Positions 1,480 through 18,701 of a DNA stretch of 64,000 nucleotides are shown here, in pieces (the stretch's first letter is position 1; the number at the start of each line of letters is the position of its first letter). The stretch lies in the IMG/VR virus record IMGVR_UViG_3300021375_002698. One strand, 5' to 3'. The notes beneath the pieces are model-generated. The model saw nothing but the letters and a program-made list of their open reading frames with translations, did not search any database and was not told the origin of the DNA. The DNA comes from a virus. The position numbers and the translations under genes are program-made.

Positions 1480-1989
1480 TCAACGTCGTGACACCCGAGA
1501 CACCCTACTCCACACAGTCGCTTCCCAACCATCACTATCATCAACATACTTTCGCCCAGTATCTACAAATCCAGCATTGCTAAACGCTCTCTTAGAAGAA
1601 ATATTGTCCACACCAATCAACAAATCAGCAGCTTCTCTACCCACAAAAAACTTCGATATCGCAATACTACCTATTCCTCTAATACTCTCCCTTACTTCAC
1701 TATCAATATAAATCGCACCCACTCTCCATCCACTTCTTTCTTCTCGAGGTGTCATAAACCCCACTAACTCGCCTTCATAATATATTCCCCCTCTTAAACG
1801 TCTACTATCATCAGGATATACAAAACCACTTATCTCACCATCTTCATCTCCCTTCATTAACAAATCGCTATCAATATCATCAGGATATGCTACTTCAACA
1901 TCTCCACTAGCAGCTATATCTATCTCTTCTCTTAATAACTTTCTCCATCCCTCAACTAATAGCTTCGTCTCTCTACAATTCATGCTCAT
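1480..1989 (-). CDS. GNAT-family acetyltransferase with head-type leader
   Basis: VGAIYIDSEVR..RGIGS (motif A) and N.SSKRAF.NAGF (motif B). Confidence 0.7.
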   Translation of the reverse strand: MSMNCRETKLLVEGWRKLLREEIDIAASGDVEVAYPDDIDSDLLMKGDEDGEISGFVYPDDSRRLRGGIYYEGELVGFMTPREERSGWRVGAIYIDSEVRESIRGIGSIAISKFFVGREAADLLIGVDNISSKRAFSNAGFVDTGRKYVDDSDGWEATVWSRVSRVSRR

Positions 1990-2258
1990 AAGTCGCTCTC
2001 TTTTCTTTTATCTATATATCAAAAAGTTATTCAAAAGTTCTCCCGAAAATTTTTGACCAAAAACTGAAAATTGGTTTATCAAAAAGCGCCGCAAACTACT
2101 ACGAAAAGCTATTTCTTTTCTTTCTACTCTTATCTATATACGTGACTCGTGGTGTTAGGGTAACGAAGAAAATACTTTTAAAAGTTGTGAGTGAGGAGAA
2201 GCGACAGCCGACTTAGGCGCGGCCCGTGTAAATTACTCACTGAGTTTGATATAATATA

Positions 2259-2312
2259 GGGGGCTTTTTAGGGGCCCAAAAAGGGCTACTAAGAGCCCCG
2301 GGGCTTTTGGCC
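2259..2312 (+). ncRNA. GC-rich hairpin directly downstream of promoter 2226 (candidate small RNA or origin element)
   Basis: GGGGCTTTTTAG pairs with CTAAGAGCCCC around an inner GCCC-AAAAA-GGGC stem; no ORF before the next promoter. Confidence 0.45.
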
Positions 2313-2344
2313 TAGTGTAAAATTTAAAATTTAATTGATATAAT

Positions 2345-2535
2345 CATCATGTAATAAATAATAAATAATAAAATTATTTAAAATAAAAAAAATAAAAAAT
2401 AAAAAAATTAAATATTATAAATCAGATATTAATATTAAATGTGTATTTTTAAAATATAATATATATAATATCAATATAATAAATAATAAATAAAAAAATT
2501 ATTTAAAATAATAAAATTAAATATTATAAAACTAT
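2345..2535. other. Almost pure A/T tract (possible DNA-unwinding element)
   Basis: About 190 nt with very few G/C. Confidence 0.5.
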
Positions 2536-2627
2536 AAAGATAGGAAATGAAGGAAAACGAGTGTAAAACGATGAGATCAGATAATACAATCATTATGTAA
2601 TTAATTAATATCTTTGAAAGGATATGT

Positions 2628-3299
2628 ATGAAACATCCACTAATACAAACTGTAATTGATAATGCTGAAACAAGAAAATTCCTTAAAGATCTATTCGAAA
2701 AGAATTTATCTGAGGGTAAAGATAAAACTTCTGTTTTAAGATTTGGGGAAGCCTTGATTGATATATTGAAAGATGAAGTCGGTTCATTAAAAGGAAAACG
2801 TGTAACATCTGGAGATACGGGTTGGCGAACTGAAATAAAATCAATGTTTTCGGGACGAGGAAGACAATGGATTAAAGTTGGAATTGATAAGGTGACACCG
2901 AGATTGGATAAATTTGATGAGGATGGAATTGACACATCAGAATATCGAAAATGGATTAAATCTAAGGATTATGCATGGATTAGATTTAATGGAGCTCGAA
3001 TTAATGATGGTGTAAATTGTGGAGGATTTGAGATAAGAACATCAGGATCCAAAATCGATCATCCGAAACAGTTATGTTATATACCGATGGATGAACTCAG
3101 TGAGGATAAAATCGAAAGATTATCAGGAACTCCCCATTCTATGAGTTTAGAAGTTATAACAGAAAAAGTTGAAGAGGAAACGATTGAGGAAACGATTGAG
3201 GAAAACACGAATCTGGACGAAGAGATTGATACAGAGGAAACAACTGGGGAAGTTACGAATGAAGACGAAGTAGATGAAGAAGATATATACTCTGTGTAA
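2628..3299 (+). CDS. Early paralog family GRGR/AWxRF/GSKxDHP, member 1, acidic tail
   Basis: Promoter 2561, GAAAGG SD; motifs shared with 8384, 28514, 30739. Confidence 0.85.
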   Translation: MKHPLIQTVIDNAETRKFLKDLFEKNLSEGKDKTSVLRFGEALIDILKDEVGSLKGKRVTSGDTGWRTEIKSMFSGRGRQWIKVGIDKVTPRLDKFDEDGIDTSEYRKWIKSKDYAWIRFNGARINDGVNCGGFEIRTSGSKIDHPKQLCYIPMDELSEDKIERLSGTPHSMSLEVITEKVEEETIEETIEENTNLDEEIDTEETTGEVTNEDEVDEEDIYSV

Positions 3300-3334
3300 T
3301 TAGGGTTTGGGTTGGGGATTGATGGATAAACGAC

Positions 3335-3422
3335 GATTAGATAAATGATTTGAAGTTACGATGATTAGATAAATGATTTGAAGTTACGATGATTAGATAA
3401 ATGATTTGAAGTTACGATGATT
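3335..3422 (+). repeat. Three perfect tandem 28-bp repeats GATTAGATAAATGATTTGAAGTTACGAT
   Basis: Units at 3335, 3363, 3391; no spacers. Confidence 0.95.
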
Positions 3423-3520
3423 CGTATCGTCAAACGTGTAAAAATTTGATTCTTTAATGTATAATATACATGTAAGGAAGGAAACAATATTTCAAGCAAC
3501 ATCACGATGAAAGGTTTAAT

Positions 3521-3766
3521 ATGATTTTTGTTTCAGTTGTACAACGTGGATATACAGAGTCGCAGTTATATGGTCCATTTAAAACAGTTGAAGAAGCGCG
3601 TCATGAATTTACTGATAGTGTTACACGAGGAGATGATGGTGACGAAACGAAGTATACATTTTTTGAAGTTAAAAATGAAGTGATGAAAGAAGTTGGATAT
3701 GTTTTGTTTTACGATGAGTGTGATGATAAAGATGATTTTAAGGAAGAATATTTTCTAAACGTGTAA
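3521..3766 (+). CDS. Hypothetical protein, paralog of 18702..18923
   Basis: Shared LYGPF.T.EEA and VG.VLF motifs; own promoter and SD. Confidence 0.8.
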   Translation: MIFVSVVQRGYTESQLYGPFKTVEEARHEFTDSVTRGDDGDETKYTFFEVKNEVMKEVGYVLFYDECDDKDDFKEEYFLNV

Positions 3767-3836
3767 TTTATGAAGTTGTTATATTATAATAACGATGTAA
3801 GGATAATTAATCAATTAACGACGAGAGGTTTATTTT

Positions 3837-3920
3837 ATGGATATTTATGGAATTTTATTAACAATCACAGTGACACTTCCAATGGCTGGGTTTATCTATC
3901 TGTTCTTGTTTGAACAATAA
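3837..3920 (+). CDS. 27-aa single-TM peptide MDIYGILLTITVTLPMAGFIYLFLFEQ
   Basis: Promoter 3761, GAGG SD; hand translation. Confidence 0.6.
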   Translation: MDIYGILLTITVTLPMAGFIYLFLFEQ

Positions 3921-3982
3921 ACGTTGTTTTGAGTTGTCATATTGAAAATATTTTTTAACTACTAACATTAGATGAGTGAGGT

Positions 3983-4171
3983 TTGTGTATGTTGATTTAT
4001 AAGATCCAGGCATTTTTGATTGTATTGTTTTTGTCTATATCTTTTCTTGGGTGTATATGTTTAGCTTATGATGCATATCTAGGTGACGAAGTTAATGTTG
4101 TGTGCTCTGGAGAGGTTTCAAGGAAAGACTGTGATGAGTATAAAGAGACTATTCGTAATCTTGATAGATGA
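3983..4171 (+). CDS. Small membrane/secreted protein
   Basis: GAGG SD; hydrophobic N-terminus. Confidence 0.6.
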   Translation: MCMLIYKIQAFLIVLFLSISFLGCICLAYDAYLGDEVNVVCSGEVSRKDCDEYKETIRNLDR

Positions 4172-4332
4172 CTTGATGTTACAAGGTTAGGATACGTCAT
4201 CTGTGATGTGTAAAATTTATTAATTAAATATTATAATCACCATGTAATAAATAATAAATTATTTAAAAATTAAATAAAAAAAATATTAATTATTATAAAT
4301 CTTTAAAATTTATAAATCTGAAAGGATTTAAT

Positions 4333-4527
4333 ATGAGTTCTGTTAAAATTCGTCAAGTATACATTGAATATCGTGATATGTCTGTTAGAGAGTTCGGTTA
4401 TGACTCTTTTGTAAAAGCTTTATCTCAATTCGTGACAAGAAACGCAGATTTAGGAGATATTGCGATTGCATCTCAGCTTGCTTACCGTTATCTTACTGAG
4501 CAAAGACAACATGATTATATAATTTGA
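4333..4527 (+). CDS. Hypothetical early protein
   Basis: Promoter 4208, GAAAGG SD. Confidence 0.7.
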   Translation: MSSVKIRQVYIEYRDMSVREFGYDSFVKALSQFVTRNADLGDIAIASQLAYRYLTEQRQHDYII

Positions 4528-4726
4528 TGTGACAAGGCTTGGATACGTTCATCAGCGATGTGTAAAATATAAATTTAAAATATTATAATATTTATGTAAT
4601 TAAGGAAAAACGAAAGGCACTATTTGTTAACTAAAGCACAAACTGTTTGCTTTGATATTGTTTTATTAATAATGTTAATTACAGTTTTAGTATATATATT
4701 ATCAACTTAGACTCACGAGTAAATTT

Positions 4727-4912
4727 ATGTTCAATTTATCTAAAGACTTAGTTTCGTTATCATTTAAAGTTAATAAACTAAGTTTTATGCAAACAGTATT
4801 TTTTGGTTTTAAATTATCAGTCAATCTTTTTGTTCTATCATTTCTGGTATCATTACCTTTTTACATTATTTCTAATGCTGCTGTGTTTATTGATTTGATG
4901 TTACAAGGCTAG
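4727..4912 (+). CDS. Hypothetical membrane protein
   Basis: Hydrophobic ORF ending within the palindromic element. Confidence 0.5.
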   Translation: MFNLSKDLVSLSFKVNKLSFMQTVFFGFKLSVNLFVLSFLVSLPFYIISNAAVFIDLMLQG

Positions 4913-5007
4913 GATACGTCATCTGCGATGTGTAAAATTTAATTTTTAATTGATATAATCTTTATGTAATTAAGGATTTAATATAAAATAATCTGAAAGG
5001 ATTTAAA

Positions 5008-5322
5008 ATGCAGGTTTTAAAAAATACAGCTAATAAAACGGGTTTTTTAAATAAGACTGTTGAACAACAAATCGAAGCGTTAGCTGAAGATTTTTGTAAC
5101 GGTATGGACTACGGTTATAAAATCGATTCAGTAAAAAAAGGCAAGAATGGCTTTTACACTGTATCAGTTGTTTGTCCAACTGGAGCTATGGCTGGTGTTT
5201 GTTTTATGTGGAACCCTGAAACTCAAACTGATTATTACCTTGGTGAGCCTATAGGCAATGAAACTTTTGAAATTCACCCAGCACTTTTCGAAGATTTCAA
5301 AGATTATGTTGTTAACGTGTAA
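5008..5322 (+). CDS. Hypothetical early protein
   Basis: Promoter 4930, GAAAGG SD. Confidence 0.8.
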   Translation: MQVLKNTANKTGFLNKTVEQQIEALAEDFCNGMDYGYKIDSVKKGKNGFYTVSVVCPTGAMAGVCFMWNPETQTDYYLGEPIGNETFEIHPALFEDFKDYVVNV

Positions 5323-5395
5323 TAAATTATTTGGTGTGATATAATTTTTATGTAATCAAGGATACAAACTAAAACAATCTGAAAGGATTTAAAAT

Positions 5396-5605
5396 ATGGA
5401 ATTTACGTATGAATCAGTTAACGATGCTTTAAATCGTCATCATCATAATCTTTCTGGTTACTGGTCTACTCTAGGCTGGGACGATAACATTGCGACGGTA
5501 GGTTATATGATGGAAGATGGAACTGAAGAAGACGTTACTGTAGATAAACAAGGAATTGTGCATGCTTCAGAAAAAGTAATGGCAGAGATGCAAGATATAG
5601 GTTAA
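5396..5605 (+). CDS. Hypothetical protein, paralog of 8095..8304
   Basis: Shared EFTY.S.N..L..HH.NL, LGWD..IATV.Y, EDVT.D, ASEK motifs. Confidence 0.85.
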   Translation: MEFTYESVNDALNRHHHNLSGYWSTLGWDDNIATVGYMMEDGTEEDVTVDKQGIVHASEKVMAEMQDIG

Positions 5606-5674
5606 CCTACATCGTGTAACTAAGTCTCTATTTGTTTTATAATTAATCACCACCCGCCAATAGAAGGATTCAAT

Positions 5675-6118
5675 ATGAATTTATCTCAATTAATTAAAAA
5701 TGCTAAACCAATAAATGATACCACAGTGTTAGGATCAGTCTGGACTGATAATAAAGATTTCTGTTCAACAGAGATGCTGAAGTCTGGCGAACAAATGTTA
5801 ACTGATATGGTTGAGTGTCAAGATCTCATTGCAACCTTAGACATCGCAGAAAAAACAAATGTTTCAATACCAAAACTATCAGCGAAATTAATTAAACAAG
5901 ATGATGACTGGGATTTTATCAAAGTAACGATTGAAAGCAAAATACCTGATGAATTTGCTAATCTCATGTGGGATATTCAAGAAGGTCGTTTCCCATCTTT
6001 GAGTTATCGTGAGAAAAAAAGTGAGTATATTACAACAATCAGAACAACATGGAGAATGGATAAATATATTTTATCTGCTGAAGATAATGTTAATATTATT
6101 AATGCAACCTTATCTTAA
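5675..6118 (+). CDS. Hypothetical early protein
   Basis: Promoter 5614, GAAGG SD. Confidence 0.8.
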   Translation: MNLSQLIKNAKPINDTTVLGSVWTDNKDFCSTEMLKSGEQMLTDMVECQDLIATLDIAEKTNVSIPKLSAKLIKQDDDWDFIKVTIESKIPDEFANLMWDIQEGRFPSLSYREKKSEYITTIRTTWRMDKYILSAEDNVNIINATLS

Positions 6119-6240
6119 TTGATTCGAGTCGTCAAGGTTAGGATACGTCATCTGCGATGTGTAAAATTTAATTTTTAATTGATATAATCTTTATGTAAAT
6201 AAGGATTACAATAACATTTTTAAAAGTAAAGGTATTTAAT

Positions 6241-6660
6241 ATGGAAAACGTTTTATCACTATTTAATATCAATCCTAAAAACCCAACGCTTTGCGAAACA
6301 ACAACTCTGGGCCAAGCGAAACGAGGAAATCGTCAGTTTTATGATACTCATCACAAAGTCTCATACATTACATATTTAAACGGATATGTTCGCCGGGAAA
6401 TTAAAGCAACCTACGTTTCACCTTATACAACAAGTCAAATATCTTATAAAGTTCAAGATCAGTTCGTTATTAACAAAAGAACAGCTACAAAACAAACATA
6501 TAAAGCGCCTAACGGATATGAATACTCATACACATCAACTGGAGTTATCAAAGAGCCTTGTGCCCAAAAGCGAATGGATATCATCGATCATCACTCATCT
6601 AACTACAGAGGATATAAAGGTCGATTCGCTAAACCAAATTATACTCTAATCTCTAGATGA
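6241..6660 (+). CDS. Hypothetical basic protein, paralog of 9542..9946
   Basis: Shared R.G....D and GYVRR.IK motifs; promoter 6159. Confidence 0.8.
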   Translation: MENVLSLFNINPKNPTLCETTTLGQAKRGNRQFYDTHHKVSYITYLNGYVRREIKATYVSPYTTSQISYKVQDQFVINKRTATKQTYKAPNGYEYSYTSTGVIKEPCAQKRMDIIDHHSSNYRGYKGRFAKPNYTLISR

Positions 6661-6773
6661 CTTGATGTCGCAAGACTAAGCAACGTCATCTCTTAAGTGT
6701 AAAATTTAATTTATAATTGATATAATCTTTATGTAAATAAGGATTCAATCCAAAATAATCTTAAAGGATTAAT

Positions 6774-7151
6774 ATGACTACTAAAGACTTACTAAACTCT
6801 ACGTATTTTCAAATCGATTATCGATCTCTCCCTTCTGGCATCGGTCATATCAACTACGAAAGTGGTGACGTCGTTCTTGTTACTGAATCTGATTCAGGTC
6901 CTAAAGATATGGAATGCGCAAGAAAAGTTATTCGAGAAGAATATCTTCCATCTTCAATTGATCACATCCCATTCAGTATGGGTGAGTATTGGGAAGCAGG
7001 CCAAGCAGCACTTGAAGCTATCTTAGAAACTCATGATGTTAAATATGTTATCGACTCTGAATTGTCTTATGAAGTGGAAGAAGATCTTGTAGAAGATATG
7101 GAATATCATATCTTTACACTGCAAAACTGGCTCAAAGCTAGAGCAGCCTAA
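6774..7151 (+). CDS. Hypothetical acidic protein
   Basis: Promoter 6697, AAAGG SD. Confidence 0.8.
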   Translation: MTTKDLLNSTYFQIDYRSLPSGIGHINYESGDVVLVTESDSGPKDMECARKVIREEYLPSSIDHIPFSMGEYWEAGQAALEAILETHDVKYVIDSELSYEVEEDLVEDMEYHIFTLQNWLKARAA

Positions 7152-7177
7152 CAAATTTACAAACAAAGGGTTTTATT

Positions 7178-7453
7178 ATGGATCATTTCAGTTTATATGG
7201 CAAAGATCAAATTGGGATTTGTAAAGATCATGAGCGTATATTAGAATTCGCTGATTGTATTTTATTATACGGCTACGCAATAAAAAGTGAGAATATAATT
7301 AAAGATATGAATAAATTTATTGACAATTGTTTAACAAAGCTACTAAGCGATAACTTAAACGATGGATGTCTTGTGTTAGACACTAAACGTGATTATGGAA
7401 TGTTTAAAAACAAAATACAATTAAATAAAATATTGTTAGAGAGTGTTGTTTAA
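7178..7453 (+). CDS. Hypothetical protein
   Basis: AAAGGG SD. Confidence 0.7.
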   Translation: MDHFSLYGKDQIGICKDHERILEFADCILLYGYAIKSENIIKDMNKFIDNCLTKLLSDNLNDGCLVLDTKRDYGMFKNKIQLNKILLESVV

Positions 7454-7551
7454 AATAACGTAGTATCAAGCTTATACAATAAATGACTTGATGTAACATC
7501 GCTTAGAGTCGTCAACGTGTAAATTGTTAAGTTAATTTTGTATAATATAAA

Positions 7552-7620
7552 TTGCATATTATCAGCAATAGAATTTTTTACTATTACTTTTATTATTTGA
7601 ATTGTAGATAATGTGAGCAA
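7552..7620 (+). ncRNA. Candidate ~70-nt hairpin RNA between two promoters
   Basis: TTGC-ATATTATC-AGCAAT pairs with ATTGT-A-GATAATGT-GA-GCAA; no SD/ORF. Confidence 0.4.
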
Positions 7621-7697
7621 TAAATTTTGTGTAAAATTTAATTTTTAATTGATATAATCATCATGTAATAAATAATAAAGATGGAAGGATTTAAAAT

Positions 7698-7973
7698 ATG
7701 GCTTCAATACGTACAACAAACATCGGAGATATTTTAACCATTAAAAAGATTGCTCAATACAATAAGATCTTAACAAATCACAGCGATCATCCTGAATGTG
7801 TTTATCCTAAAGTTACAGATGTTAATAGAATTTTAACAGTAGGTTCAAATTTAACTGTCATAGCTAAGGGAAAGTGTGAAACAAAGTGGGCAGAATCATA
7901 CGTTACTGTTAAAGATCACAATAACAATTCTTTCGATATCTTATCCAGCGATTTGCGAAGATTCTGCAAGTAA
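7698..7973 (+). CDS. Hypothetical protein (SH3-like beta pattern)
   Basis: Promoter 7629, GGAAGG SD. Confidence 0.75.
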   Translation: MASIRTTNIGDILTIKKIAQYNKILTNHSDHPECVYPKVTDVNRILTVGSNLTVIAKGKCETKWAESYVTVKDHNNNSFDILSSDLRRFCK

Positions 7974-8094
7974 CTCTCATTGTGTAAAATTTAATTTTTG
8001 GTTGATATAATCACCATGTAATTAATAATAAATTATTTAAAAATAATATTAATTATATAAATCTTTAAAATCTATAAATCTGAAAGGATTTAAT

Positions 8095-8304
8095 ATGAAA
8101 TTTGAATTTACTTATAACTCTATTAATCATATTTTATATAATCATCATCCTAATCTATGTTCATGGATGTCTTTAGGATGGGATAAAAAAATTGCTACTG
8201 TACAATACAAACTGAAAGATAATACTGTTGAGGATGTCACAATCGATCGTCAAGCCAATGTAACTGCATCAGAAAAGTTAATGGTTGAGATAAATGAAAG
8301 ATAA
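8095..8304 (+). CDS. Hypothetical protein, paralog of 5396..5605
   Basis: Sequence similarity; promoter 7982. Confidence 0.85.
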   Translation: MKFEFTYNSINHILYNHHPNLCSWMSLGWDKKIATVQYKLKDNTVEDVTIDRQANVTASEKLMVEINER

Positions 8305-8383
8305 TAACTTTTAAAGTGTAAAATTTAATTTTTGGTTGATATAATCATCATGTAATTAATAATAAATCTGAAAGGATTTAAAA

Positions 8384-9136
8384 ATGGATAATTTAAATAA
8401 TAAAGATTCTAACTCTAACTCTAACATCCACGAGGTTCTTATGAGCAACGAAACTCAAATCATCGAATTATTTCAGTCTTTTCTTTCTAACGGAGGCTCT
8501 CCTAAAGTTACAAGCTTTAAAAAGCATCTTGATTCACTCATTAATTCAAACATTAAACCTCTTTGCGTTCGTTCTGGAAAAGCACCAGACGGAGATGATT
8601 GGAGATCGGTGCTCAAAGCTTTATTCGGAGGTCGAGGTAAAAAATGGGTTCAAGTCTCTATAGATAACATCATTCCAACTCTTGATCAATTTGACGCTGA
8701 ATATTATGACACTTTAAAATACAGAGAGTTTATTAAAACTGCAGGATTCGCTTGGATTCGTTTCGCCGGTCCTAGAATGGATATGAATATCCAATCAGCT
8801 GCTTTCGAAGTTAGAACTAACGGATCTAAAATTGATCACCCTAAACAACTCCATTATATCCCAGTAGATAAAATTGAAGAGCTCACTGTTACTTTAAACG
8901 GAACTCCTCATTCACTAAAACTAGAATCAAACAACACTGAAGTTGAAACTGAAACTGAAACTGAAGTTGTAACTGAAACTGAAGTTGTAACTGAAGTTGA
9001 AACTGAAACTGAAACTGAAACTGAAACTGAAACTGAAGTTGAAACTGAAACTGAAGCTGATTCAGAATACACAATAGAAATGTTAGATGAAGACTTCTCA
9101 GACTTATATACAGATGAAGAGCTATTTAACGTATAG
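8384..9136 (+). CDS. Early paralog family member 2, (ET)n acidic tail
   Basis: FGGRGKKW, AWIRF, FEVRTNGSKIDHPKQL, GTPHS; promoter 8316. Confidence 0.85.
   Translation: MDNLNNKDSNSNSNIHEVLMSNETQIIELFQSFLSNGGSPKVTSFKKHLDSLINSNIKPLCVRSGKAPDGDDWRSVLKALFGGRGKKWVQVSIDNIIPTLDQFDAEYYDTLKYREFIKTAGFAWIRFAGPRMDMNIQSAAFEVRTNGSKIDHPKQLHYIPVDKIEELTVTLNGTPHSLKLESNNTEVETETETEVVTETEVVTEVETETETETETETEVETETEADSEYTIEMLDEDFSDLYTDEELFNV
8936..9060 (+). repeat. GAAACT hexamer repeat encoding a poly(Glu-Thr) tail
   Basis: Directly visible. Confidence 0.9.
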
Positions 9137-9161
9137 AATGACGTTATCATGCATTTCTTGA

Positions 9162-9201
9162 TTAATATCATTGTTTAAAAGATATCAGGTAATGATATTA
9201 A
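9162..9201. other. 11-bp perfect inverted repeat immediately before promoter 9204
   Basis: TTAATATCATT...AATGATATTAA. Confidence 0.7.
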
Positions 9202-9269
9202 ATGTGTAAATTAAAATGACTACTTATTATAATAACAATGTAAATCAAATTAAAAAAGGATTTTTCTTA

Positions 9270-9476
9270 ATGTTTTATTCTCATCTACAATCATTTGCGA
9301 TTGGAATTATCATCGCTTCTATAACATTTGTAATGTTTCTTCATCACAAAGAAAGCGAGGCGCAAATTAAAAAGACAAATGAAATGATTAAATATACTAA
9401 AGACGTGTGTATAAATCAAAGACCCAAGAATACAGAAACAAAACTTTGCGAGTTCTTAAAAAAGAAGTATTTATAA
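9270..9476 (+). CDS. Single-TM protein (start revised to ATG 9270)
   Basis: AAAGGA SD; promoter overlaps the track's longer start. Confidence 0.65.
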   Translation: MFYSHLQSFAIGIIIASITFVMFLHHKESEAQIKKTNEMIKYTKDVCINQRPKNTETKLCEFLKKKYL

Positions 9477-9541
9477 GTGTAAATACAATCTTAATTTAAT
9501 ATAATTCATATAACAGCTAATTTAATAAAGGCATAAAATTT

Positions 9542-9946
9542 ATGTTTAATACAAAACAATTCACTGATGTTACTTCTGACAAACAACGACGAAGTGGAAC
9601 AACATGTTACAGAGATAATAAAAATCCAGGCGTATTCTATACTTCACATTCAAGCGGTTATGTTCGTAGAGTAATCAAACTGAAGTCTGAACGTATTAAC
9701 AATTTAACAAATGAAAAGAAGACTAAAGAAATTCATACAAAATATCATATCAATCCATCGACTGTGAGCACTCATGAAAGTAACGACAATAAAAAATCAA
9801 TCAGCATTATGCTTCCAACAGAAAACATGCGTTTAAATCGAATTCAAACGCAAGCTGATAAGTTTAATAAAAAACGATTTGTTGCTAATTCGTCATGCGT
9901 TGTAATTAGAGATGACGAAATTATTATTACAACAATTGACGTATAA
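9542..9946 (+). CDS. Hypothetical basic protein, paralog of 6241..6660
   Basis: GYVRRVIK; promoter 9477. Confidence 0.8.
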   Translation: MFNTKQFTDVTSDKQRRSGTTCYRDNKNPGVFYTSHSSGYVRRVIKLKSERINNLTNEKKTKEIHTKYHINPSTVSTHESNDNKKSISIMLPTENMRLNRIQTQADKFNKKRFVANSSCVVIRDDEIIITTIDV

Positions 9947-9993
9947 AGGTTAAACTTGTACTTGATATTTGTTACAATACAAATATTAAATAT

Positions 9994-10066
9994 GGGCAGT
10001 TAGCCAAGCGGTTAAGGCTCCGGTCTCATAAACCGGCGATCCTCGGTTCAAATCCGAGACTGCCCA
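9994..10066 (+). tRNA. tRNA with CAT anticodon (Ile2/lysidine or elongator Met), no encoded CCA
   Basis: Acceptor GGGCAGT/ACTGCCC; anticodon arm CCGGT-CTCATAA-ACCGG; GGTTCAAATCC T-arm; lacks initiator features. Confidence 0.9.
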
Positions 10067-10121
10067 CTTATTTATCTAGTCTTTTAGATGAATAAATTAA
10101 ATATCTTATGAAAGGTTCATT

Positions 10122-10361
10122 ATGAATAAAGAAATTTTTAATACATATAAATCTCTAATAGTTTCAAATACTGTTGATGCTATTAGAGAATCTAAAAATA
10201 CAAACAAATGTTTAACTGAAGTATTATGCTCAAATCATAATAAAAGTACTGATGTTTACAATCAGTTAAATAAACAAATGGTTTCATCAAGCAATCCTAA
10301 CTATCCTTCTAAATCTGGCAATCCTAGCGGTCCAGGCAGAGGTAATTCTCCTAAGAAGTAA
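10122..10361 (+). CDS. Small protein with C-terminal NPNYPSKSGNPSGPGRGNSPKK
   Basis: GAAAGG SD; lies between tRNAs. Confidence 0.65.
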   Translation: MNKEIFNTYKSLIVSNTVDAIRESKNTNKCLTEVLCSNHNKSTDVYNQLNKQMVSSSNPNYPSKSGNPSGPGRGNSPKK

Positions 10362-10416
10362 AACATAAACAAGGTAAATTCTTATCTACAACCTTCAATA
10401 AAATGTAGATACACAT

Positions 10417-10488
10417 GCACTCGTAGCTCAGTGGAAGAGCAGTGGCCTTCTAAGCCATTGGTCGTAGGTTCAAATCCTACCGGGTGTA
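10417..10488 (+). tRNA. tRNA-Arg(TCT), no encoded CCA
   Basis: Cloverleaf; anticodon arm GTGGC-CTTCTAA-GCCAT. Confidence 0.93.
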
Positions 10489-10585
10489 CTAAGTTTCATA
10501 TAACTTTTATTTCTATACAAAAATATAAAATAAATTAATAGCTGATGGTGGTACATTAAACTATTACTTATATGAAACTCCTTAA

Positions 10586-10658
10586 GGATTGTTAGCTCAA
10601 TCGGTAGAGCAGTGGACTTTTAATCCATTGGTTCTGGGTTCGAGTCCCAGACGATCCA
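10586..10658 (+). tRNA. tRNA-Lys(TTT), no encoded CCA
   Basis: Cloverleaf; anticodon arm GTGGA-CTTTTAA-TCCAT. Confidence 0.93.
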
Positions 10659-10696
10659 ATCATATAAGTCATCTTAACTAAAAAAAGGAAATCTTT

Positions 10697-10981
10697 ATGA
10701 AAGATATCAATTTACCTGATAATATCTCACTTATCAACAAAACAATAAATTGCTTCAATCATCAATACCCAAACTTCGATGCGCTTGATGTTGATGATTT
10801 CTTCTCAAATGACTATAAACAATATCACTATCAGGCTTTCATCTCTGATAACGGAAACGTCACACTTGAATTCCCAATAACTGCAGACTCAAACCCAGCT
10901 TCTATAGTCATATCAAAAGAATCAAAAACAATCAAAACTAATCACTCTTTCAAAAAAGAACTAGAAAGAGTAAATAGATAA
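10697..10981 (+). CDS. Hypothetical protein
   Basis: AAAGGA SD. Confidence 0.7.
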   Translation: MKDINLPDNISLINKTINCFNHQYPNFDALDVDDFFSNDYKQYHYQAFISDNGNVTLEFPITADSNPASIVISKESKTIKTNHSFKKELERVNR

Positions 10982-11431
10982 CGAATCACTTATTTTTTAG
11001 TCTCTCACCCCCTGCAAAACTAGATAAAATACAGCGCTACTCAAAACAGAACTGCCCTCAAAATAATTCACGCTCCACAAACTTCTACTACCCTTCGTAT
11101 CGTCAAACACTTCTCACGTAATTCTGTGCTGCCCTATCTAATTTAACACTATCACTTCCAACACATATAACACTCTATCTACTTTCACATAGATCTAGTC
11201 GCAAAGAATAAAATGATAACAATAATATCCACTATAAATAACACAATTTTCTACTCTACATTCATTCTTGTAGGTAACTCATTCCTCTATAACGAATACA
11301 ATCAACTTCATCTATCAGTACTAATCATAACATCAGTTATAGACGCAACTATAGACTAATCCACTACGTGTAATTTTAATAACTATATTGTTATAATAAC
11401 AATGTAAATACCCAATATAAAAGGATAAATT

Positions 11432-11659
11432 ATGGAAAATTACTTGATTTATGTTTACAATATCTGCTGGCCTTCAACAGATAAACACGCTTTCTACAAC
11501 TGCAAAAACATTCCCACTCACTCTTATGTGAAAATACCAAAAGATACTTTCTCTAACGACACAGAACGAAATGTCTTCATTGACTTCATTCTTCTTAATA
11601 ACACGGGAATAAAACCCCTCACATACACATACTCTCTTGAATATGTCTGCCACCTCTAA
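11432..11659 (+). CDS. Hypothetical protein
   Basis: Promoter 11368, AAAGGA SD. Confidence 0.75.
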   Translation: MENYLIYVYNICWPSTDKHAFYNCKNIPTHSYVKIPKDTFSNDTERNVFIDFILLNNTGIKPLTYTYSLEYVCHL

Positions 11660-11677
11660 ACAGAAAGGTTTTCAATC

Positions 11678-11908
11678 ATGAATCCAATTATCAAAGTCAA
11701 AGGTACTGACGGTACTCTATACACTGTCTTCACTTCTCACATTATCTTCTACGAAAGCGTTTCAAAACCTTACTATGATTCCGAAGAACACACATGGCGA
11801 GATTCCGAAGAAGGGTCAATCATACACCTATCTAATAACTTCAACCCTATCAAAGTTACTCAAACTAAAGATGAATTAGATAAACAAATCAACACTTTAA
11901 TAGAATAA
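11678..11908 (+). CDS. Hypothetical protein
   Basis: GAAAGG SD. Confidence 0.75.
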   Translation: MNPIIKVKGTDGTLYTVFTSHIIFYESVSKPYYDSEEHTWRDSEEGSIIHLSNNFNPIKVTQTKDELDKQINTLIE

Positions 11909-11909
11909 A

Positions 11910-12260
11910 AAACAATAAACAGCTACACTCAGCATCAAAACGTTTCGCGCGCCTTGTCCTGTGTTGTAGTTTGAGATATACATCTGTGTATCTGGTTTAG
12001 CGTCTGTAAGTGTTTTGATAAGAGTATGATAAAACATATTGTATTGTTTTTAGAGTGTATCTGAGTTTAAGTTGTACCATTTGTTATTTATGATGTAGTA
12101 TTATTTGCAGGAGTTAGTGAGTGATATGTGTTATAAGTGTTTGTTATATTGGTTGAGTGTATTTGGAGTATATTTTGTATTGTATATGTTATTGGAGATA
12201 TTATATAGTTGAGATTTATTTTTAGTTTCTTTTGAAGGGTTTAAAGATGAATAATATTAG
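11910..12260. other. Intergenic GC-skew inversion centred on AAACGTTT-CGCGCG palindromes (candidate origin or terminal-repeat boundary)
   Basis: 11821-11940 has 26 C/7 G; 12121-12240 has 1 C/29 G (hand count); no change of gene strand. Confidence 0.6.
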
Positions 12261-12342
12261 TGTGTAATATATTGTTTATGTATATTATAATATAGTTGTG
12301 GGGAAGGAAATAATAATTTTAACTGCTTTTGAAAGGTTTGAT

Positions 12343-12675
12343 ATGAAGATTATAGTTGCTTGGAAATTTGGATTGAGAGATCGTGCTGCTAATGGCGAGT
12401 TAAAGAATCATTATATTTCTAATGTTCATGAATATGATGATTTAGATTCTGACGAGAAAGAGATGTTACATGATGCATATGCAAAAGCTATTGGAGTTCC
12501 TGTTACTATTGACTTGAAAGAGTTATTTAATCATCTTGCTACTTTTGAGTTAGAACATTTGTCTAATTACAGTATACATGATGCTTTGCATTTGAAGTAC
12601 TGTTGGGAAGTTGATGGTTTTTTAAAGTTAGATGAAGACGAAGACTATGGAGACAGGTGGAATAAATTAAATTGA
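12343..12675 (+). CDS. Hypothetical protein (start revised)
   Basis: ATG after the leader repeat. Confidence 0.75.
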   Translation: MKIIVAWKFGLRDRAANGELKNHYISNVHEYDDLDSDEKEMLHDAYAKAIGVPVTIDLKELFNHLATFELEHLSNYSIHDALHLKYCWEVDGFLKLDEDEDYGDRWNKLN

Positions 12676-12736
12676 TTGAGAGAATATAAGTGTTGGAAGG
12701 AAATAATATTTTTAACTGCTTTTGAAAGGTTTTATT

Positions 12737-12919
12737 ATGGTTGACAATAATGAAGAGAATAGAGTTAAGTTAGCTGACAAGGTATTTGAGAATATGGATA
12801 AAGATGAGATTAGATTATTAGCTTATAAGAGTTTATTGAAGATTTATATTCATAGTCCTGTTGTTTTTGAGCATGATTGGAATCAAGAGTTTTCTGATGT
12901 TATTGATTTAAGTGAGTAG
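12737..12919 (+). CDS. Hypothetical protein (start revised)
   Basis: ATG after the leader repeat. Confidence 0.7.
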   Translation: MVDNNEENRVKLADKVFENMDKDEIRLLAYKSLLKIYIHSPVVFEHDWNQEFSDVIDLSE

Positions 12920-12953
12920 ATTTTATTTTTAACTGCTTTTGAAAGGTTTAAAC

Positions 12954-13307
12954 ATGAAAATCTTAAATATAACTGGATATAGTTTTAGTAATCCTGACCG
13001 GGTTTTTTATAATGGTGTTAGTGAAGCTGAAATGTTGAATAAGTTAGGCTTAGTAGACGGTAGAACTCTTGAGAATAGTTTGATTAGTCATTTAACTGAC
13101 TGGGTTAATTACAAGAAGATTTTAGATAGTTTTAAAGAAGAGGGTTTTACTCATATTACAAATGATGATGATTCTGTGAATATTATTCATGGTAATAGAG
13201 AAGCTTTGCTTGAAGATCCTATAGATAATGAGATTCAGCGTGCGAGCAAGGGAATAGAACATGTATTATCTCTAGGCAGAATTGATTCTACACAATTAGA
13301 CTTTTGA
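12954..13307 (+). CDS. Hypothetical protein (start revised)
   Basis: ATG after the leader repeat. Confidence 0.75.
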   Translation: MKILNITGYSFSNPDRVFYNGVSEAEMLNKLGLVDGRTLENSLISHLTDWVNYKKILDSFKEEGFTHITNDDDSVNIIHGNREALLEDPIDNEIQRASKGIEHVLSLGRIDSTQLDF

Positions 13308-13336
13308 TTTTTTTAACTACTTTTGAAAGGTTTAAC

Positions 13337-14400
13337 ATGAAATACTTTTTTTTTTACTTTCTTCGAGTGCTTTTTGTAAAGAAAAGATAACATCACATAT
13401 ACAAGCAAATGAGTTTTCTATAGTTGAGCAAATTGTTATAAGAGATAATTTTAATTTATCTCTTCATAAGCTGTTTGGTATGAAGTATAAGATTTTAACT
13501 AGTGAAACAGTATATGAAGAGATAAAAAAGTCAAATTTAAAAATTGAATATGATCAGCAAGAATGTAATTTAAGTTTAGCAAAAAAACTAAAAGCAAAGT
13601 TTTCTTTTATTATTAAAGTTAGAAAAGCAAACAAAAAATATTATACTGTAATAGAGCTTTACAGAATAAAAGATAATGTTTTAATAGACGGATTTAAAGA
13701 AAGTTTTACAGCAAGTAAGAAAAATAGAATGAAGCGCCTTAGTAATGTAATAGAAAAAAATATTTTTAAGTTTAAGTCTAAACTTCTACAAGTTAAATTT
13801 TTAGTTAACAAAAAGATTAGTAACAAAAAGATTAGTAACAAAAAGATTAGTAACAAAAAGATTAGTAGCAAAAAGATTAGTAGCAAAAAGATTAGCAGAC
13901 TACGAACTACATTGAGTGACTTAAAAAAGTATTATCTAGGAAATAGTAGTAAAGATTATAGTAAAAGTTTAAAAAAAGAGTATTCTGATGTTTTATTTGA
14001 AAATAACGTTATATACTCTTTGCTTATAGTCGCAGGAATTACTTTTACTATTAGCGGTTTAGTTTTATTAAAAAAAGCTAAAGAAGATATAAGCAGCAAT
14101 CAAGAAGTTAATTCTATTATTTATCGTAATGGTGAAAAGAAAAAAGTTGTTAGTAGTGTTTTTTTATTTACTGGGTTAATAACAATTATTACTAGCGTAG
14201 CATTTTCTTTGGAGTGTAATAATTTTATAAAAAATGTTTATGAGAACAAATATTTTTTAAATGAAAATAAAACAAAAACTTGCTTATATAATTCAAATAA
14301 AATGAACAGAAAGCTTAATGTTAGTGTTAAAGACAGTATTAGATTTAATTTAAAAGCAAATCGAAAAAGTCTTCAAGGACTTATTACTTTTAAGTTCTAA
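13337..14400 (+). CDS. Envelope protein (signal peptide, TolB-N/DUF2380-like domain, NKKIS repeats, 2 TM) with a frameshift in a T10 tract
   Basis: ATG 13337 follows the leader repeat; one extra T in 13346-13355 joins it in frame to 13480..14400. Confidence 0.6.
13807..13896 (+). repeat. Six 15-bp tandem repeats (NKKIS/SKKIS)
   Basis: A(A/G)CAAAAAGATTAG(T/C) x6. Confidence 0.95.
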
Positions 14401-14524
14401 TAGCTTTAGAGCTTCAAAGAGAAAGTTGGTAATTCACGTGTAAATAATTTATAATATATTGTATAATATAAGTGTGGAGAAGGAAATAATAATTTTATTT
14501 TTAACAGCTTTTGAAAGGCTTAAT

Positions 14525-14785
14525 ATGAGATATGAAAATGAAACAGGCAATAGAGCTTTGGGCATGTATGTTAATTCAGAACATGTAGATGTGTCTAAAG
14601 AACTTTTGATTGACATAATTCAGCAAATTGTAAAGAACTGTTATAATGATGGCTTTGATGAAATATGTTCTGATGATCATGCTGTAGTAGGAATGATTAA
14701 ATTATTTATGGATGTTGCTGATGAAACAGGATATCATAGATTACAAAGCGACTTGCAAAAGTTGTATACACATTATGACATATGA
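14525..14785 (+). CDS. Hypothetical protein, recent duplicate of 19373..19651
   Basis: GNRALGMYVNSEHVDVSKEL identical in both. Confidence 0.85.
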   Translation: MRYENETGNRALGMYVNSEHVDVSKELLIDIIQQIVKNCYNDGFDEICSDDHAVVGMIKLFMDVADETGYHRLQSDLQKLYTHYDI

Positions 14786-15234
14786 GGGTCAACATTATGA
14801 GAAAGCATATTGCATTTTTAGTTTTTGCACCGTATGGTGATTCTTCTAGTCAAGTTAATGAAGAAAAGAATAAGAAGTTGATGATAGAGCTTAAAGAAGG
14901 TTATTATAACAATCCTAGGCTTTTTGGTCCTGGGCTTAGTCATAGCGTAAGATTAGATAGATTGATATCGTTAGTTAGAGATAAGAATGGAGAAGACGTT
15001 TTAAATACACATACGTTTTGGTATGCGAATACGTTGAAGGATAATTATGAGAAGAGTGGAGTAGTACCTTGGGATGATGTTTGTGAATGTATTTATCACC
15101 CTAGCAAGAGTGAAGATCAAGAAAGAGTAGAGATGTCTGATGAAGATTTTGATAACATGTGGAGAAACGAAATAGCTATGGAAACTGGGATGTTATATGG
15201 AATAGATGCGTATAACGACATAAGAGGATATTGA
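14782..15234 (+). CDS. Hypothetical protein
   Basis: ORF with overlapping start. Confidence 0.7.
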   Translation: MRVNIMRKHIAFLVFAPYGDSSSQVNEEKNKKLMIELKEGYYNNPRLFGPGLSHSVRLDRLISLVRDKNGEDVLNTHTFWYANTLKDNYEKSGVVPWDDVCECIYHPSKSEDQERVEMSDEDFDNMWRNEIAMETGMLYGIDAYNDIRGY

Positions 15235-15269
15235 TATTTTATCTTTAACAGCTTTTGAAAGGTTTTGAT

Positions 15270-15845
15270 ATGACGTTGGTAGAAAAAACTAACAATATTA
15301 GTTTATTAATTGAGGAAAGTAAAAAGTTAGTATTAGGAAAATGTAGTGCGGGAGTATTTGTAAGATATAATAATACAGGTACTTTCTTAGAAAAATATAA
15401 AGAAAAGATTGGTAAAGCAATTCACCTTGAATGGCATGTAGGAAGTAATAAACCTCATAAAGATTCTGAAAAGTGTGTAACTTGCTGTTTTCATGTTGAA
15501 GAACGGGTGTCTCAAATTAATTGGGAACGAATAGTATACTCTGATCTTTTTAAAAAGTTCGAAGAGTTAGTGCTTCATGACATAGAGTTATTTGATAAAG
15601 ACTTAATCTTAATCAAGGAAACACCCAGTACGTTTGATTGCAGAAATCATCTTCGTCATGGAAAAAGTACTAGAGCTTATTGGATAGGATTTGAGTTTTC
15701 AAAAAAAGAAAATTTTGAAAGTAGAATATCTGATGTTGTTTTATATTCGTATGTTTTTAGTAATATTATTAACAATCATATCTGGTTAATAAAAGGATTG
15801 ATTACATCAAACCATAGCTCACTTATACAAAAAAGATTAATTTGA
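15270..15845 (+). CDS. Hypothetical protein flanked by ~35-bp direct repeats
   Basis: TTGATATTTTATCTTTAAC(A/T)GCTTTTGAAAGGTTT at 15231 and 15842. Confidence 0.75.
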   Translation: MTLVEKTNNISLLIEESKKLVLGKCSAGVFVRYNNTGTFLEKYKEKIGKAIHLEWHVGSNKPHKDSEKCVTCCFHVEERVSQINWERIVYSDLFKKFEELVLHDIELFDKDLILIKETPSTFDCRNHLRHGKSTRAYWIGFEFSKKENFESRISDVVLYSYVFSNIINNHIWLIKGLITSNHSSLIQKRLI

Positions 15846-15881
15846 TATTTTATCTTTAACTGCTTTTGAAAGGTTTAAATT

Positions 15882-16874: not shown

Positions 16875-16925
16875 TTAGATAAACATGACTATTATTTAAA
16901 CTATTTTACATTGTAAGGAGCAATA

Positions 16926-17474: not shown

Positions 17475-17552
17475 ATTATTATATATTGTATAATATAAGT
17501 GTGGGGAAGGAAATAATAATTTTATTTTTAACAGCTTTTGAAAGGTTTTAGA

Positions 17553-17810: not shown

Positions 17811-17866
17811 TTCTTATGTAAGGAATTATTCAATAAATTTTTTAACAACTTTTTTGGAGTTACGTT

Positions 17867-18166: not shown

Positions 18167-18199
18167 AGACTATATTTGATAATTATAGGGAATGTTTAA

Positions 18200-18664: not shown

Positions 18665-18701
18665 TTTTAGAAAGTTTTTTATTTTTCTTGAAAGGTTATG
18701 T

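What the first reader, a model, noticed from the sequence alone, without database searches (positions are those of the whole stretch)
2226..11400. Cassette array A: palindrome, promoter and leader units in front of unrelated small ORFs
Seen: almost every ORF has its own GTGTAA-N17/18-TATAAT promoter. Six promoters are preceded by a ~36-bp imperfect palindrome (AGATGAC...GTCATCT type). About 65 bp are near-identical between ~4905-4970 and ~6133-6198, and ~110-125 bp between 4208-4335 and 7982-8097, yet the downstream ORFs are unrelated. Known: T4-type PeSL (promoter early stem-loop) cassettes mediate modular gene shuffling. Inference: a recombination-driven gene capture and shuffling platform with its own signature element; no integrase is visible in the window.
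Basis: partly seen in the sequence, partly recalled or inferred. Interest (0 to 1): 0.8.

Follow-up and report, generated by a model that had tools for sequence, protein, structure and literature searches.

The report
Shuffling promoter-gene cassettes in marine phage
An uncultured 237-kb marine phage carries a 9-kb row of tiny unknown genes, most with its own copy of an unusual promoter, and related phages have moved, lost, gained and swapped these genes at the promoter copies, much as already described for T4-type phages.

Summary
GTGTAA-N17/18-TATAAT occurs 36 times in the window against 0.16 expected, and 418 times on the gene strand against 1 on the other in 79 related marine contigs. Eighteen copies head the small ORFs of 2226-11400. 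The near-identical stretches are real: a 60-nt exact run, and an 80% identical promoter-leader pair.

The "palindrome" is a conserved 36-40-bp sequence, not a selected hairpin. In 26 copies, 72.5% of cells pair against 72.8% in shuffles. The array has no plus-strand terminators.

Relatives at 70-88% identity differ in gene order and content. Homology blocks end in the promoter unit or at the ribosome site (49 of 61 ends in 25% of the length). Both ends of one moved cassette map inside the element-promoter unit. Promoters in the variable centre resemble each other more than their orthologues. The same junctions recur in independent assemblies.

Best reading: a hyperplastic, probably early, gene region shuffled by general homologous recombination between repeated promoter and leader units. 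It works like T4 PeSL cassettes but lacks their stem-loop terminator and sigma70-type -35 box. I found no evidence for a dedicated recombinase.

This scan has already reported the same arrays in other genomes of this phage clade.

The parts
2226..2255 (+). First promoter copy at the head of the array (GTGTAA-N18-TATAAT)
   Evidence: conserved in L002, L003, L004, L007 and L008
2256..2312 (+). GC-rich hairpin element transcribed from the first promoter
   Evidence: fold -31.7 kcal/mol, z -2.45; conserved, with 4 compensated pairs in 6 sequences
2315..2344 (+). Promoter copy followed by a 215-nt AT-rich leader; the leader holds a degenerate second promoter-leader copy at about 2439-2528
   Evidence: family D1; relatives L001 and L004 carry an F2-type gene here
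2561..2590 (+). Promoter variant (-10 box TACAAT) directly before F1a
   Evidence: the orthologues have TATAAT
2628..3299 (+). F1a, 223 aa, first gene of the array; it has an acidic repeat tail and belongs to a four-member family in the window
   Evidence: no Pfam or PHROG hit
3330..3432 (+). Three tandem 28-bp repeats running into a variant of the upstream element (3402-3432)
   Evidence: D8, D11; relatives have a single copy
3436..3465 (+). Backbone promoter before ORF 3521-3766 (81 aa)
   Evidence: orthologue identity 0.98 against best paralogue 0.78
3761..3790 (+). Backbone promoter before peptide 3837-3920 and ORF 3989-4171
4166..4237 (+). Upstream element (4166-4203) plus promoter (4208-4237); left boundary of the mobile 4333 cassette
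4333..4527 (+). ORF, 64 aa; its cassette lies before 4727 here and after 4727 in lineages B and C
4517..4589 (+). Upstream element (4517-4555) plus promoter (4560-4589); right boundary of the 4333 cassette
4624..4912 (+). Membrane peptide 4624-4710 and ORF 4727-4912 (61 aa); relatives carry an extra gene (n2) between them
4888..4959 (+). Upstream element plus promoter; shares a 60-nt exact run with 6139-6198
5008..5322 (+). ORF, 104 aa; present in L055, absent from L061 and from lineage B
5317..5345 (+). Promoter with the lineage-C type spacer; identical, together with the 45 nt upstream, to the L055 copy
5396..5605 (+). F2a, 69 aa; in lineages B and C its orthologue sits directly upstream of F1b instead
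5614..6118 (+). Promoter (5614-5643) and ORF 5675-6118 (147 aa), rare among the relatives
6117..6188 (+). Upstream element plus promoter
6241..6660 (+). F3a, 139 aa; it lies before 6774 here and after 6774 in L055 and L061
6655..6726 (+). Upstream element plus promoter
6774..7453 (+). ORF 6774-7151 (125 aa) and ORF 7178-7453 (91 aa); the second has no promoter of its own and no relative outside its own >=90% cluster, apart from one near-identical copy
7481..7658 (+). Upstream element (7481-7514) and two promoters (7517-7546, 7629-7658)
7698..7973 (+). ORF, 91 aa; widespread in the clade and found on either side of 6774 in different relatives
7982..8304 (+). Promoter and leader (80% identical to 4200-4340) followed by F2b (8095-8304, 69 aa)
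8316..9136 (+). Promoter followed by F1b (8384-9136, 250 aa, with a Thr/Glu/Val repeat tail)
   Evidence: (D3)
9204..9946 (+). Promoter, ORF 9270-9476, backbone promoter 9477-9505, then F3b (9542-9946, 134 aa)
9994..10658 (+). tRNA-Met, ORF 10122-10361, tRNA-Arg and tRNA-Lys; the ORF between the tRNAs is absent in L012
10697..11397 (+). ORF 10697-10981, a C-rich non-coding stretch, and promoter 11368-11397

Best explanation
Region 2226-11400 is the hyperplastic, probably early ('host-takeover'-like) gene block of an uncultured, low-GC, 237.5-kb marine phage.

Each small ORFan gene, or pair of genes, carries its own copy of a clade-wide promoter. The promoter is GTGTAA, 17-18 nt, then TATAAT; in this array the -10 box is often extended to TGnTATAAT. 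A conserved start-of-transcript box (nTGTAA, 4 nt after the -10 box) and a conserved ribosome site (CTGAAAGGATTTAAAATG) follow. A subset of promoters also carries a conserved 36-40-bp upstream element.

There are no terminators, so transcription accumulates along the row.

These regulatory units are repeated every 300-900 bp and share exact runs of 23-60 nt. They therefore serve as portable homology for ordinary homologous recombination, both within a genome and between co-infecting relatives. Crossovers in them excise, insert, transpose and replace whole promoter-gene cassettes, and they homogenise the promoters themselves by gene conversion.

Shown: the motif statistics, the rearrangements, where the homology breaks fall, the concerted evolution, and the absence of a hairpin or terminator.

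Inferred: promoter activity, early timing, which sigma factor reads GTGTAA, and that recombination itself (rather than selection on random events) places the breaks.
For: Promoter motif:
- It occurs 36 times against 0.16 expected.
- It is present in 74 of 79 related loci, 418 times on the gene strand against 1 on the other.
- All array ORFs lack Pfam and PHROG hits.

Gene order differs between the window, lineage B (L004/L012, L002, L003) and lineage C (L055, L061, L029, L007):
- The 4333 cassette is transposed.
- The order of 6774 and F3a is inverted.
- F2a is relocated.
- Several cassettes are gained, lost or replaced.

Where the homology breaks fall:
- 49 of 61 homology-block ends lie in the promoter unit or within 20 nt before a start codon, which together make up 25% of the length.
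- Both ends of the 4333 cassette map inside the element-promoter unit.

Homogenisation of the repeats:
- Centre promoters: orthologue identity 0.66-0.92 is below the best same-genome paralogue, 0.85-0.98.
- Backbone promoters behave the opposite way.
- Spacer-only identity is 0.66 for orthologues against 0.77 for paralogues.
- Exact repeats of 23-60 nt exist between units.

Independent support for the junctions:
- L004 and L012 are 99.8% identical over 2.9 kb and come from different assemblies.
- L002 shares lineage B's 4727-to-4333 junction, and L003 its order as far as 4727.
- L055 and L061 share the lineage C junctions.

Other:
- The mechanism was described for T4-type phages (PMC2839356; PMC4122927).
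- A 5'-3' exonuclease and a RecA/DnaB-superfamily ATPase are encoded in the window.
Against: - No transcript, circle or read-level evidence is available, and promoter function is inferred from sequence alone.
- Breaks at gene boundaries are also what selection would leave after random recombination.
- Some indels end cleanly at tRNA genes, with no repeat involved.
- Nearly all intergenic DNA here is repeat, so the test 'repeat versus unique intergenic' has little power: 49 of 51 non-interior ends against 80% expected.
- The homology-block ends are not independent events.
- The window's own gene order is confirmed only indirectly by other contigs.
Confidence: 0.75

Rival explanations
1. Selection only. 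The repeated units are alike because strong promoters and ribosome sites are constrained. The differences between relatives come from illegitimate recombination anywhere, and selection keeps only the events that end between genes.
For: The indel of ORF 10122 ends exactly at tRNA gene borders without any repeat. ORF 7178 follows 6774 with no repeat between them. Clade-wide conservation of GTGTAA and TATAAT shows functional constraint.
Against: - Homogenisation affects the unconstrained spacer, and it is lineage-specific: AATTTAATTTTTAATTGA in the window against TAAATTATTTGGTGTGA in lineage C, before orthologous genes.
- There is a 60-nt exact run in a genome whose orthologues are only about 80% identical.
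- The transposed cassette carries the element-promoter unit at both ends.
Confidence: 0.1
2. Site-specific system. The upstream element (TGAYTYGA...CGTCA) is an attC-like recombination site used by a dedicated recombinase or nuclease encoded elsewhere in the 237-kb genome.
For: The element sits at cassette 3' ends, overlaps the stop codons of upstream ORFs in different frames, has a short inverted repeat, and is confined to the most plastic part of the array.
Against: - There is no covariation, and pairing is no better than in shuffles: 72.5% against 72.8%.
- Fold z-scores run from -2.0 to +1.0.
- The loop sequence is as conserved as the arms.
- Only 6-7 of about 19 junctions carry it, and rearrangements also occur at junctions without it and at ribosome sites.
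- Lineage C has degenerate copies.
- No integrase was found among about 50 window ORFs scanned.
- Intragenic mosaics point to general recombination.
Confidence: 0.07
3. Assembly artefact. The different gene orders are chimeric joins made by short-read assemblers at the 60-120-bp repeats.
For: All relatives are metagenome contigs. Many contigs end inside or next to the array. The repeats are as long as typical k-mers.
Against: - The same non-window junctions recur in independent assemblies whose sequences differ.
- The 4727-to-4333 junction is in L004, L012 and L002.
- The 4333-to-6774 and 6774-to-F3a junctions are in L055 and L061.
- The F3a-to-F2 and F2-to-F1b junctions are in L055 and L029.
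Confidence: 0.03

Closest known systems
PeSL (promoter-early stem-loop) cassettes of T4-type phages (Arbiol et al. 2010, PMC2839356; Comeau et al. 2014, PMC4122927)
   Same: - A repeated promoter, leader and Shine-Dalgarno unit of about 100 bp stands in front of small ORFans in a hyperplastic region.
- ORFs that differ between relatives are flanked by the units.
- Exchange occurs by recombination in the units, and no integrase is involved.
- The unit sequence is subgroup-specific.
   Different: - There is no stable stem-loop and no terminator.
- The -35 box is GTGTAA rather than a TTGACA-like hexamer.
- The phage is an uncultured marine jumbo phage in which no T4 core gene was recognised in the window.
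- An extra conserved 36-40-bp upstream element is present.
- Mini-circles were not tested.
Host-takeover / pre-early gene clusters of large virulent phages, such as the SPO1 host-takeover module and the T5 pre-early region (from my own knowledge, not checked here)
   Same: A dense one-strand row of very small genes of unknown function, many with their own strong promoter and strong ribosome site, at the head of a transcription direction.
   Different: Those clusters lie in terminal redundancies, and the location here could not be tested. Repeat-mediated shuffling is not their defining feature.
Integron gene-cassette arrays
   Same: One-strand arrays of small, unrelated ORFs with an imperfect inverted repeat at cassette 3' ends.
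   Different: Here every cassette has its own promoter, the inverted repeat is not structurally conserved, no integrase was seen, and the breakpoints are spread over promoter, leader and ribosome site.
GTGTAA promoter-cassette arrays reported earlier by this scan in other genomes of the same marine giant-phage clade (e1-5363178, e1-5363193)
   Same: The same promoter motif, the same cassette architecture, and the same conclusion of PeSL-like shuffling.
   Different: This is a different genome. What this report adds:
- the test of the upstream element (not a hairpin);
- the measurement of concerted evolution;
- mapped cassette boundaries.

Membership tests
PeSL cassettes (T4-type phages) | The same promoter motif is repeated in front of small ORFans, clustered in a variable region | tested here: met
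   36 copies against 0.16 expected, 18 of them in the 9-kb array; the ORFs have no family hits. Promoter activity itself was not tested.
PeSL cassettes (T4-type phages) | The promoter matches or approaches the sigma70 consensus (TTGACA/TTTACW/TTGYVH-N17-TATAAT) | tested here: not met
   The -10 box is TATAAT, but the -35 box is GTGTAA and the spacer is mostly 18 nt. TTGACA-type sites are not enriched: 54 against 62.6 expected.
PeSL cassettes (T4-type phages) | A stable stem-loop in the unit acts as terminator or attenuator | tested here: not met
   Fold z-scores are -2.0 to +1.0. The 7-bp stem pairs in 72.5% of cells against 72.8% in shuffles, with no covariation. No plus-strand terminator-like site exists in 1900-12400.
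PeSL cassettes (T4-type phages) | ORFs that differ between close relatives are flanked by the units, and exchange points lie in them | tested here: met
PeSL cassettes (T4-type phages) | Mini-circles are formed by recombination between neighbouring units | not testable with these tools
   This needs outward PCR or reads.
PeSL cassettes (T4-type phages) | The carrier is a T4-type myovirus | tested here: inconclusive
   No T4 core gene was recognised among the window ORFs scanned. Only 64 of 237 kb were seen. The best GroEL match is 39.6%, to a Flavobacterium phage.
Integron cassette array | attC sites: imperfect palindromes conserved in structure rather than in sequence | tested here: not met
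   The element is conserved in sequence, loop included, and shows no covariation.
Integron cassette array | An adjacent tyrosine-recombinase integrase, and promoterless cassettes read from one Pc promoter | tested here: not met
   No recombinase domain was found in about 50 scanned ORFs of the window. Each cassette has its own promoter.
Terminal-repeat host-takeover module (SPO1/T5 type) | Location inside a long terminal repeat | not testable with these tools
   No whole genome is held, and read coverage is not available.

The most novel reading that the evidence does not exclude
The GTGTAA promoter, leader and ribosome-site unit may be read by the phage's own two-piece sigma factor. It would then be a private 'plug-and-play' expression and recombination standard shared by a whole clade of marine jumbo phages. 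Any gene flanked by it could be exchanged between distant members and be expressed at once. The conserved upstream element would be a dedicated regulatory or recombination signal of the most mobile cassettes.
Probability: 0.2. Interest if true: 0.6.

Novelty: new variant of a known kind. Interest (0 to 1): 0.4.

Why it matters
- It extends promoter-repeat-mediated modular gene shuffling, so far documented for T4-type phages, to an uncultured clade of marine jumbo phages. These use a different promoter code and no stem-loop terminator. The stem-loop therefore seems dispensable; what matters is dispersed regulatory homology.
- It gives a concrete explanation for why metagenome assemblies of these phages break in this region.
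- It explains how these phages' early ORFan repertoire, probably host-takeover or anti-defence genes, turns over quickly.
- The measured within-genome homogenisation of promoters is direct sequence evidence that the repeats recombine.

Tried and rejected
- Phage collection, 10-kb megablast and tblastn of the 754-aa ORF: no match.
- IMG/VR scans with the promoter consensus and with F1b: nothing.
The long contigs behind P0004 and P0008, and the 1682-bp contig that may confirm the window's own order, could therefore not be fetched.
- No whole genome is held for the window. The record behind L021 could not be searched.
- Rfam found only the three tRNAs.
- Hairpin or terminator reading of the 'palindrome': rejected.
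- 'ATGTAA = leaderless start-stop mini-ORF' after the -10 box: rejected. The box is nTGyrr in 23 of 36 copies and includes ATGCAA and GTGTGG.
- AlphaFold2 of F1a gave pLDDT 56.5, too poor for a fold search, so none was run.
- The RecA-like ATPase at 43118-43876 could not be assigned as a recombinase rather than a DnaB-like helicase.
- A literature search for GTGTAA phage promoters found nothing relevant.


Full report
**What the window is**

The window is low-GC DNA, 25-33%. It encodes:
- a GroEL-type chaperonin;
- adenylosuccinate synthetase-like and lyase-like proteins;
- an IMP dehydrogenase / GMP reductase-family enzyme;
- an ATP-dependent ligase;
- an AAA_5 ATPase next to a DUF2201 protein;
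- a sigma factor with regions 1.2, 2 and 3;
- a 5'-3' exonuclease;
- three tRNAs.

There is no close match in the phage collection. The best GroEL match is 39.6%, to Flavobacterium phages. The window's proteins lie on a contig of 237,550 bp, and relatives lie on contigs of up to 277,787 bp from marine metagenomes. It is therefore an uncultured marine jumbo phage. No whole genome is held for it.

**Check of the observation**

GTGTAA-N16-19-TATAAT occurs 36 times against 0.16 expected, always on the coding strand. Eighteen copies lie in 2226-11400. The spacer is 18 nt in 28 copies and 17 nt in 8.

The array-A copies mostly read TGATATAAT, an extended -10 box. Twenty-three of the 36 copies carry nTGyrr exactly 4 nt after the -10 box, and 15 of those read ATGTAA.

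Canonical TTGACA-type sites are not enriched, and there is no plus-strand terminator-like site in 1900-12400.

The upstream element is present at 4166, 4517, 4888, 6117, 6655 and 7481, with a variant at 3402.

- 4910-4969 and 6139-6198 are identical over 60 nt.
- The promoter-leader pair 4200-4340 and 7974-8102 is 80% identical.

**The 'palindrome' is not a hairpin**

- Only two window copies have the full 7-bp arms.
- RNA folds are no better than shuffles, with z from -2.0 to +1.0.
- In 26 distinct copies from the window and relatives, the proposed stem pairs in 72.5% of cells against 72.8% in shuffles. The covariation score is 0.138 against 0.142.
- Only the 4-bp core TGAY/CGTCA is kept, and that is through sequence conservation. 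The 'loop' (TTGATGTnnCAAGGCTWGGATA) is as conserved as the arms.

The element always abuts a promoter, with CGTCA lying 2-9 nt before GTGTAA. It overlaps the ends of upstream ORFs in different frames, so it acts as DNA or RNA and not as coding sequence. Its role is open. My ranking is:
1. an upstream promoter-associated protein-binding site;
2. a passive junction remnant;
3. an RNA processing site or a recombination signal.

**Relatives**

IMG/VR held nothing. The first array protein, F1a, has 31 homologues. One scan of the metagenome contigs returned 79 loci.

The promoter motif is present in 74 of the 79 loci: 418 copies on the gene strand and 1 on the other. It is therefore a clade-wide signal, kept even where F1 proteins are only 37% identical. 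Across the clade the architecture is the same: a divergent junction, three or four stacked promoters, F1, and then a variable row of small genes.

**Gene content and order**

| Lineage | Order |
|---|---|
| Window | F1a, 3521, pep, 3989, 4333, pep, 4727, 5008, F2a, 5675, F3a, 6774, 7178, 7698, F2b, F1b, 9270, F3b |
| B (L004+L012; L002 and L003 cover it from F1a as far as 4727 and differ in detail) | F2b-type, F1a, 3521, 3989, pep, n2, 4727, 4333, n51, n21, 6774, F2a-type, F1b, n22, 9216, F3b |
| C (L007, L055, L061, L029) | F1a, 3521, n77-79, n2, 4727, (5008), n127, 4333, 6774, F3a, F2a-type, F1b, n22, F3b |

So, among phages whose shared DNA is 70-88% identical:
- the 4333 cassette is transposed;
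- the order of 6774 and F3a is inverted;
- F2a is relocated;
- many cassettes are present in one lineage only.

ORF 7178 has no relative outside its own >=90% cluster in 5.8 billion proteins. At deeper divergence, 6774 and 7698 also occur in both orders.

**Where the breaks are**

Homology blocks end at three kinds of place:
- the 5' edge of the element or of the promoter;
- 14-22 nt after the -10 box;
- about 17 nt before the start codon, or at the start codon.

Of 61 lineage-distinct block ends, 49 lie in the promoter unit (-45 to +25) or within 20 nt before a start codon. Those zones make up 25% of the length. Most of the ten ORF-interior ends are in the variable acidic tails of the F1 genes, and two are in F2b.

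Three-way alignments bound both ends of the 4333 transposition to the element-promoter unit:
- To the left, the window follows the '3989' copy of L002 up to GTGTAAAATTTA.
- From the spacer onward, it follows the '4333' copy.

**Concerted evolution**

Backbone promoters (3436, 3761, 9477) behave as ordinary orthologues, with identity 0.92-0.98 to lineage B against 0.69-0.78 to the best paralogue.

Promoters of the plastic centre (4208-8345) do the opposite. Orthologue identity is 0.66-0.92, against 0.85-0.98 to the best paralogue in the same genome. The spacer, which is not expected to be constrained, is lineage-specific:
- AATTTAATTTTTAATTGA in the window;
- TAAATTATTTGGTGTGA in lineage C, before the same genes.

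Spacer-only identity is 0.66 for orthologues against 0.77 for window paralogues (Wilcoxon p about 8e-4; the pairs are not independent).

One window promoter, 5317, has the lineage-C spacer. Together with the 45 nt upstream of it, it is identical to the L055 copy, which suggests import by recombination.

Exact repeats of 23-60 nt between units are, from general knowledge of minimal homology requirements, long enough for homologous recombination.

**Control for assembly artefacts**

L004 and L012 come from different assemblies and are 99.8% identical over 2.9 kb. L002 shares their 4727-to-4333 junction, and L003 shares the order as far as 4727, where its contig ends; both differ from them in sequence. 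L055 and L061 share the lineage C junctions, and L029 shares F3a-F2-F1b.

The window's own order has only indirect support: F3a-like and 7178-like proteins are reported on one 1682-bp contig.

**Limits**

- Breaks between genes are also what selection leaves behind after random events.
- The indel of ORF 10122 ends at tRNA gene borders with no repeat.
- The F2 gene of L029 is an intragenic mosaic: its 5' part is 90% identical to the window's F2a, and its 3' part is 93% identical to lineage B.

Recombination is thus general. The repeats are preferred, viable exchange points rather than exclusive ones.

**Comparison with what is known**

PeSLs of T4-type phages are about 100-bp units made of a sigma70-like early promoter plus a stable stem-loop terminator. 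They sit in front of ORFans in hyperplastic regions, and recombination between them deletes, inserts and circularises ORFs (PMC2839356; PMC4122927).

This array works the same way but fails two defining features: the stem-loop/terminator and the sigma70-type -35 box. It also sits in a different kind of phage. I therefore file it as a new variant of a known kind, not as a PeSL. An integron-like reading fails on attC structure, integrase and promoterless cassettes.

This scan has already reported the same GTGTAA cassette arrays in other genomes of this clade. The present report agrees with them. It adds the hairpin test, the concerted-evolution measurement and the mapped boundaries.

Noticed in passing
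window 2256-2312: A GC-rich structured element of about 57 nt, in a 29% GC genome, lies between the first two promoters. It folds at -31.7 kcal/mol (z -2.45). It is conserved in five relatives, with 4 compensated pairs. It could be a small RNA, an attenuator or an insulator at the head of the array.
   Followed up: partly
window 3330-3422: The 5' half of the upstream-element variant is triplicated in tandem as 28-bp units. The four closest relatives have a single copy, so this is a window-specific slippage or unequal-exchange event.
   Followed up: yes
all 36 promoters of the window (for example 4238-4247): A conserved box nTGyrr, usually ATGTAA, lies exactly 4 nt after the -10 box in 23 of 36 promoters. 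It resembles the -35 box GTGTAA and is often followed by an AAGGA repeat at the start of the transcript. Its meaning is unknown.
   Followed up: partly
window 12262-23330: A second set of cassettes has longer shared leaders. About 55 nt are near-identical after promoters 12262, 14438 and 17465, and another shared leader follows promoters 17782-21773. The cassette architecture therefore continues well beyond 11400.
   Followed up: no
window 10980-12260: This stretch is strongly C-rich and G-poor on the coding strand (GC skew -0.26), between G-rich neighbours, although the genes stay on the plus strand. At 11097-11111 it contains a 15-nt copy of the 3' end of the element variant, with no promoter after it.
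   Followed up: no
window 2628-3299, 8384-9136, 28514-29065, 30739-31356: This is a four-member protein family (F1), present in all 79 related loci and usually the first gene behind stacked promoters. It has invariant W/R/G motifs and a variable acidic repeat tail. The AlphaFold2 model was poor (pLDDT 56.5).
   Followed up: partly
L029 915-1124 against window 5396-5605 and L004 13891-14100: The F2 gene of L029 is an intragenic mosaic. Its first 135 nt are 90% identical to the window's F2a, and its last 75 nt are 93% identical to lineage B.
   Followed up: yes
window 7178-7453: This 91-aa ORF has no relative outside its own >=90% cluster in the 5.8-billion-protein collection, apart from one near-identical copy. 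It is also the only array gene that follows its neighbour without a promoter or repeat.
   Followed up: yes
window 46782-50324 (minus strand): A block of purine-nucleotide genes: adenylosuccinate lyase-like, adenylosuccinate synthetase-like, and an IMP dehydrogenase / GMP reductase-family gene. Whether the synthetase is of the PurZ kind used for modified bases was not examined.
   Followed up: no
window 9994-10658 against L012 and L029: The DNA between the tRNA genes varies. ORF 10122 is absent in L012, where tRNA-Met abuts tRNA-Arg. The Arg-Lys spacer is missing in L029. The endpoints fall at the tRNA gene borders.
   Followed up: partly
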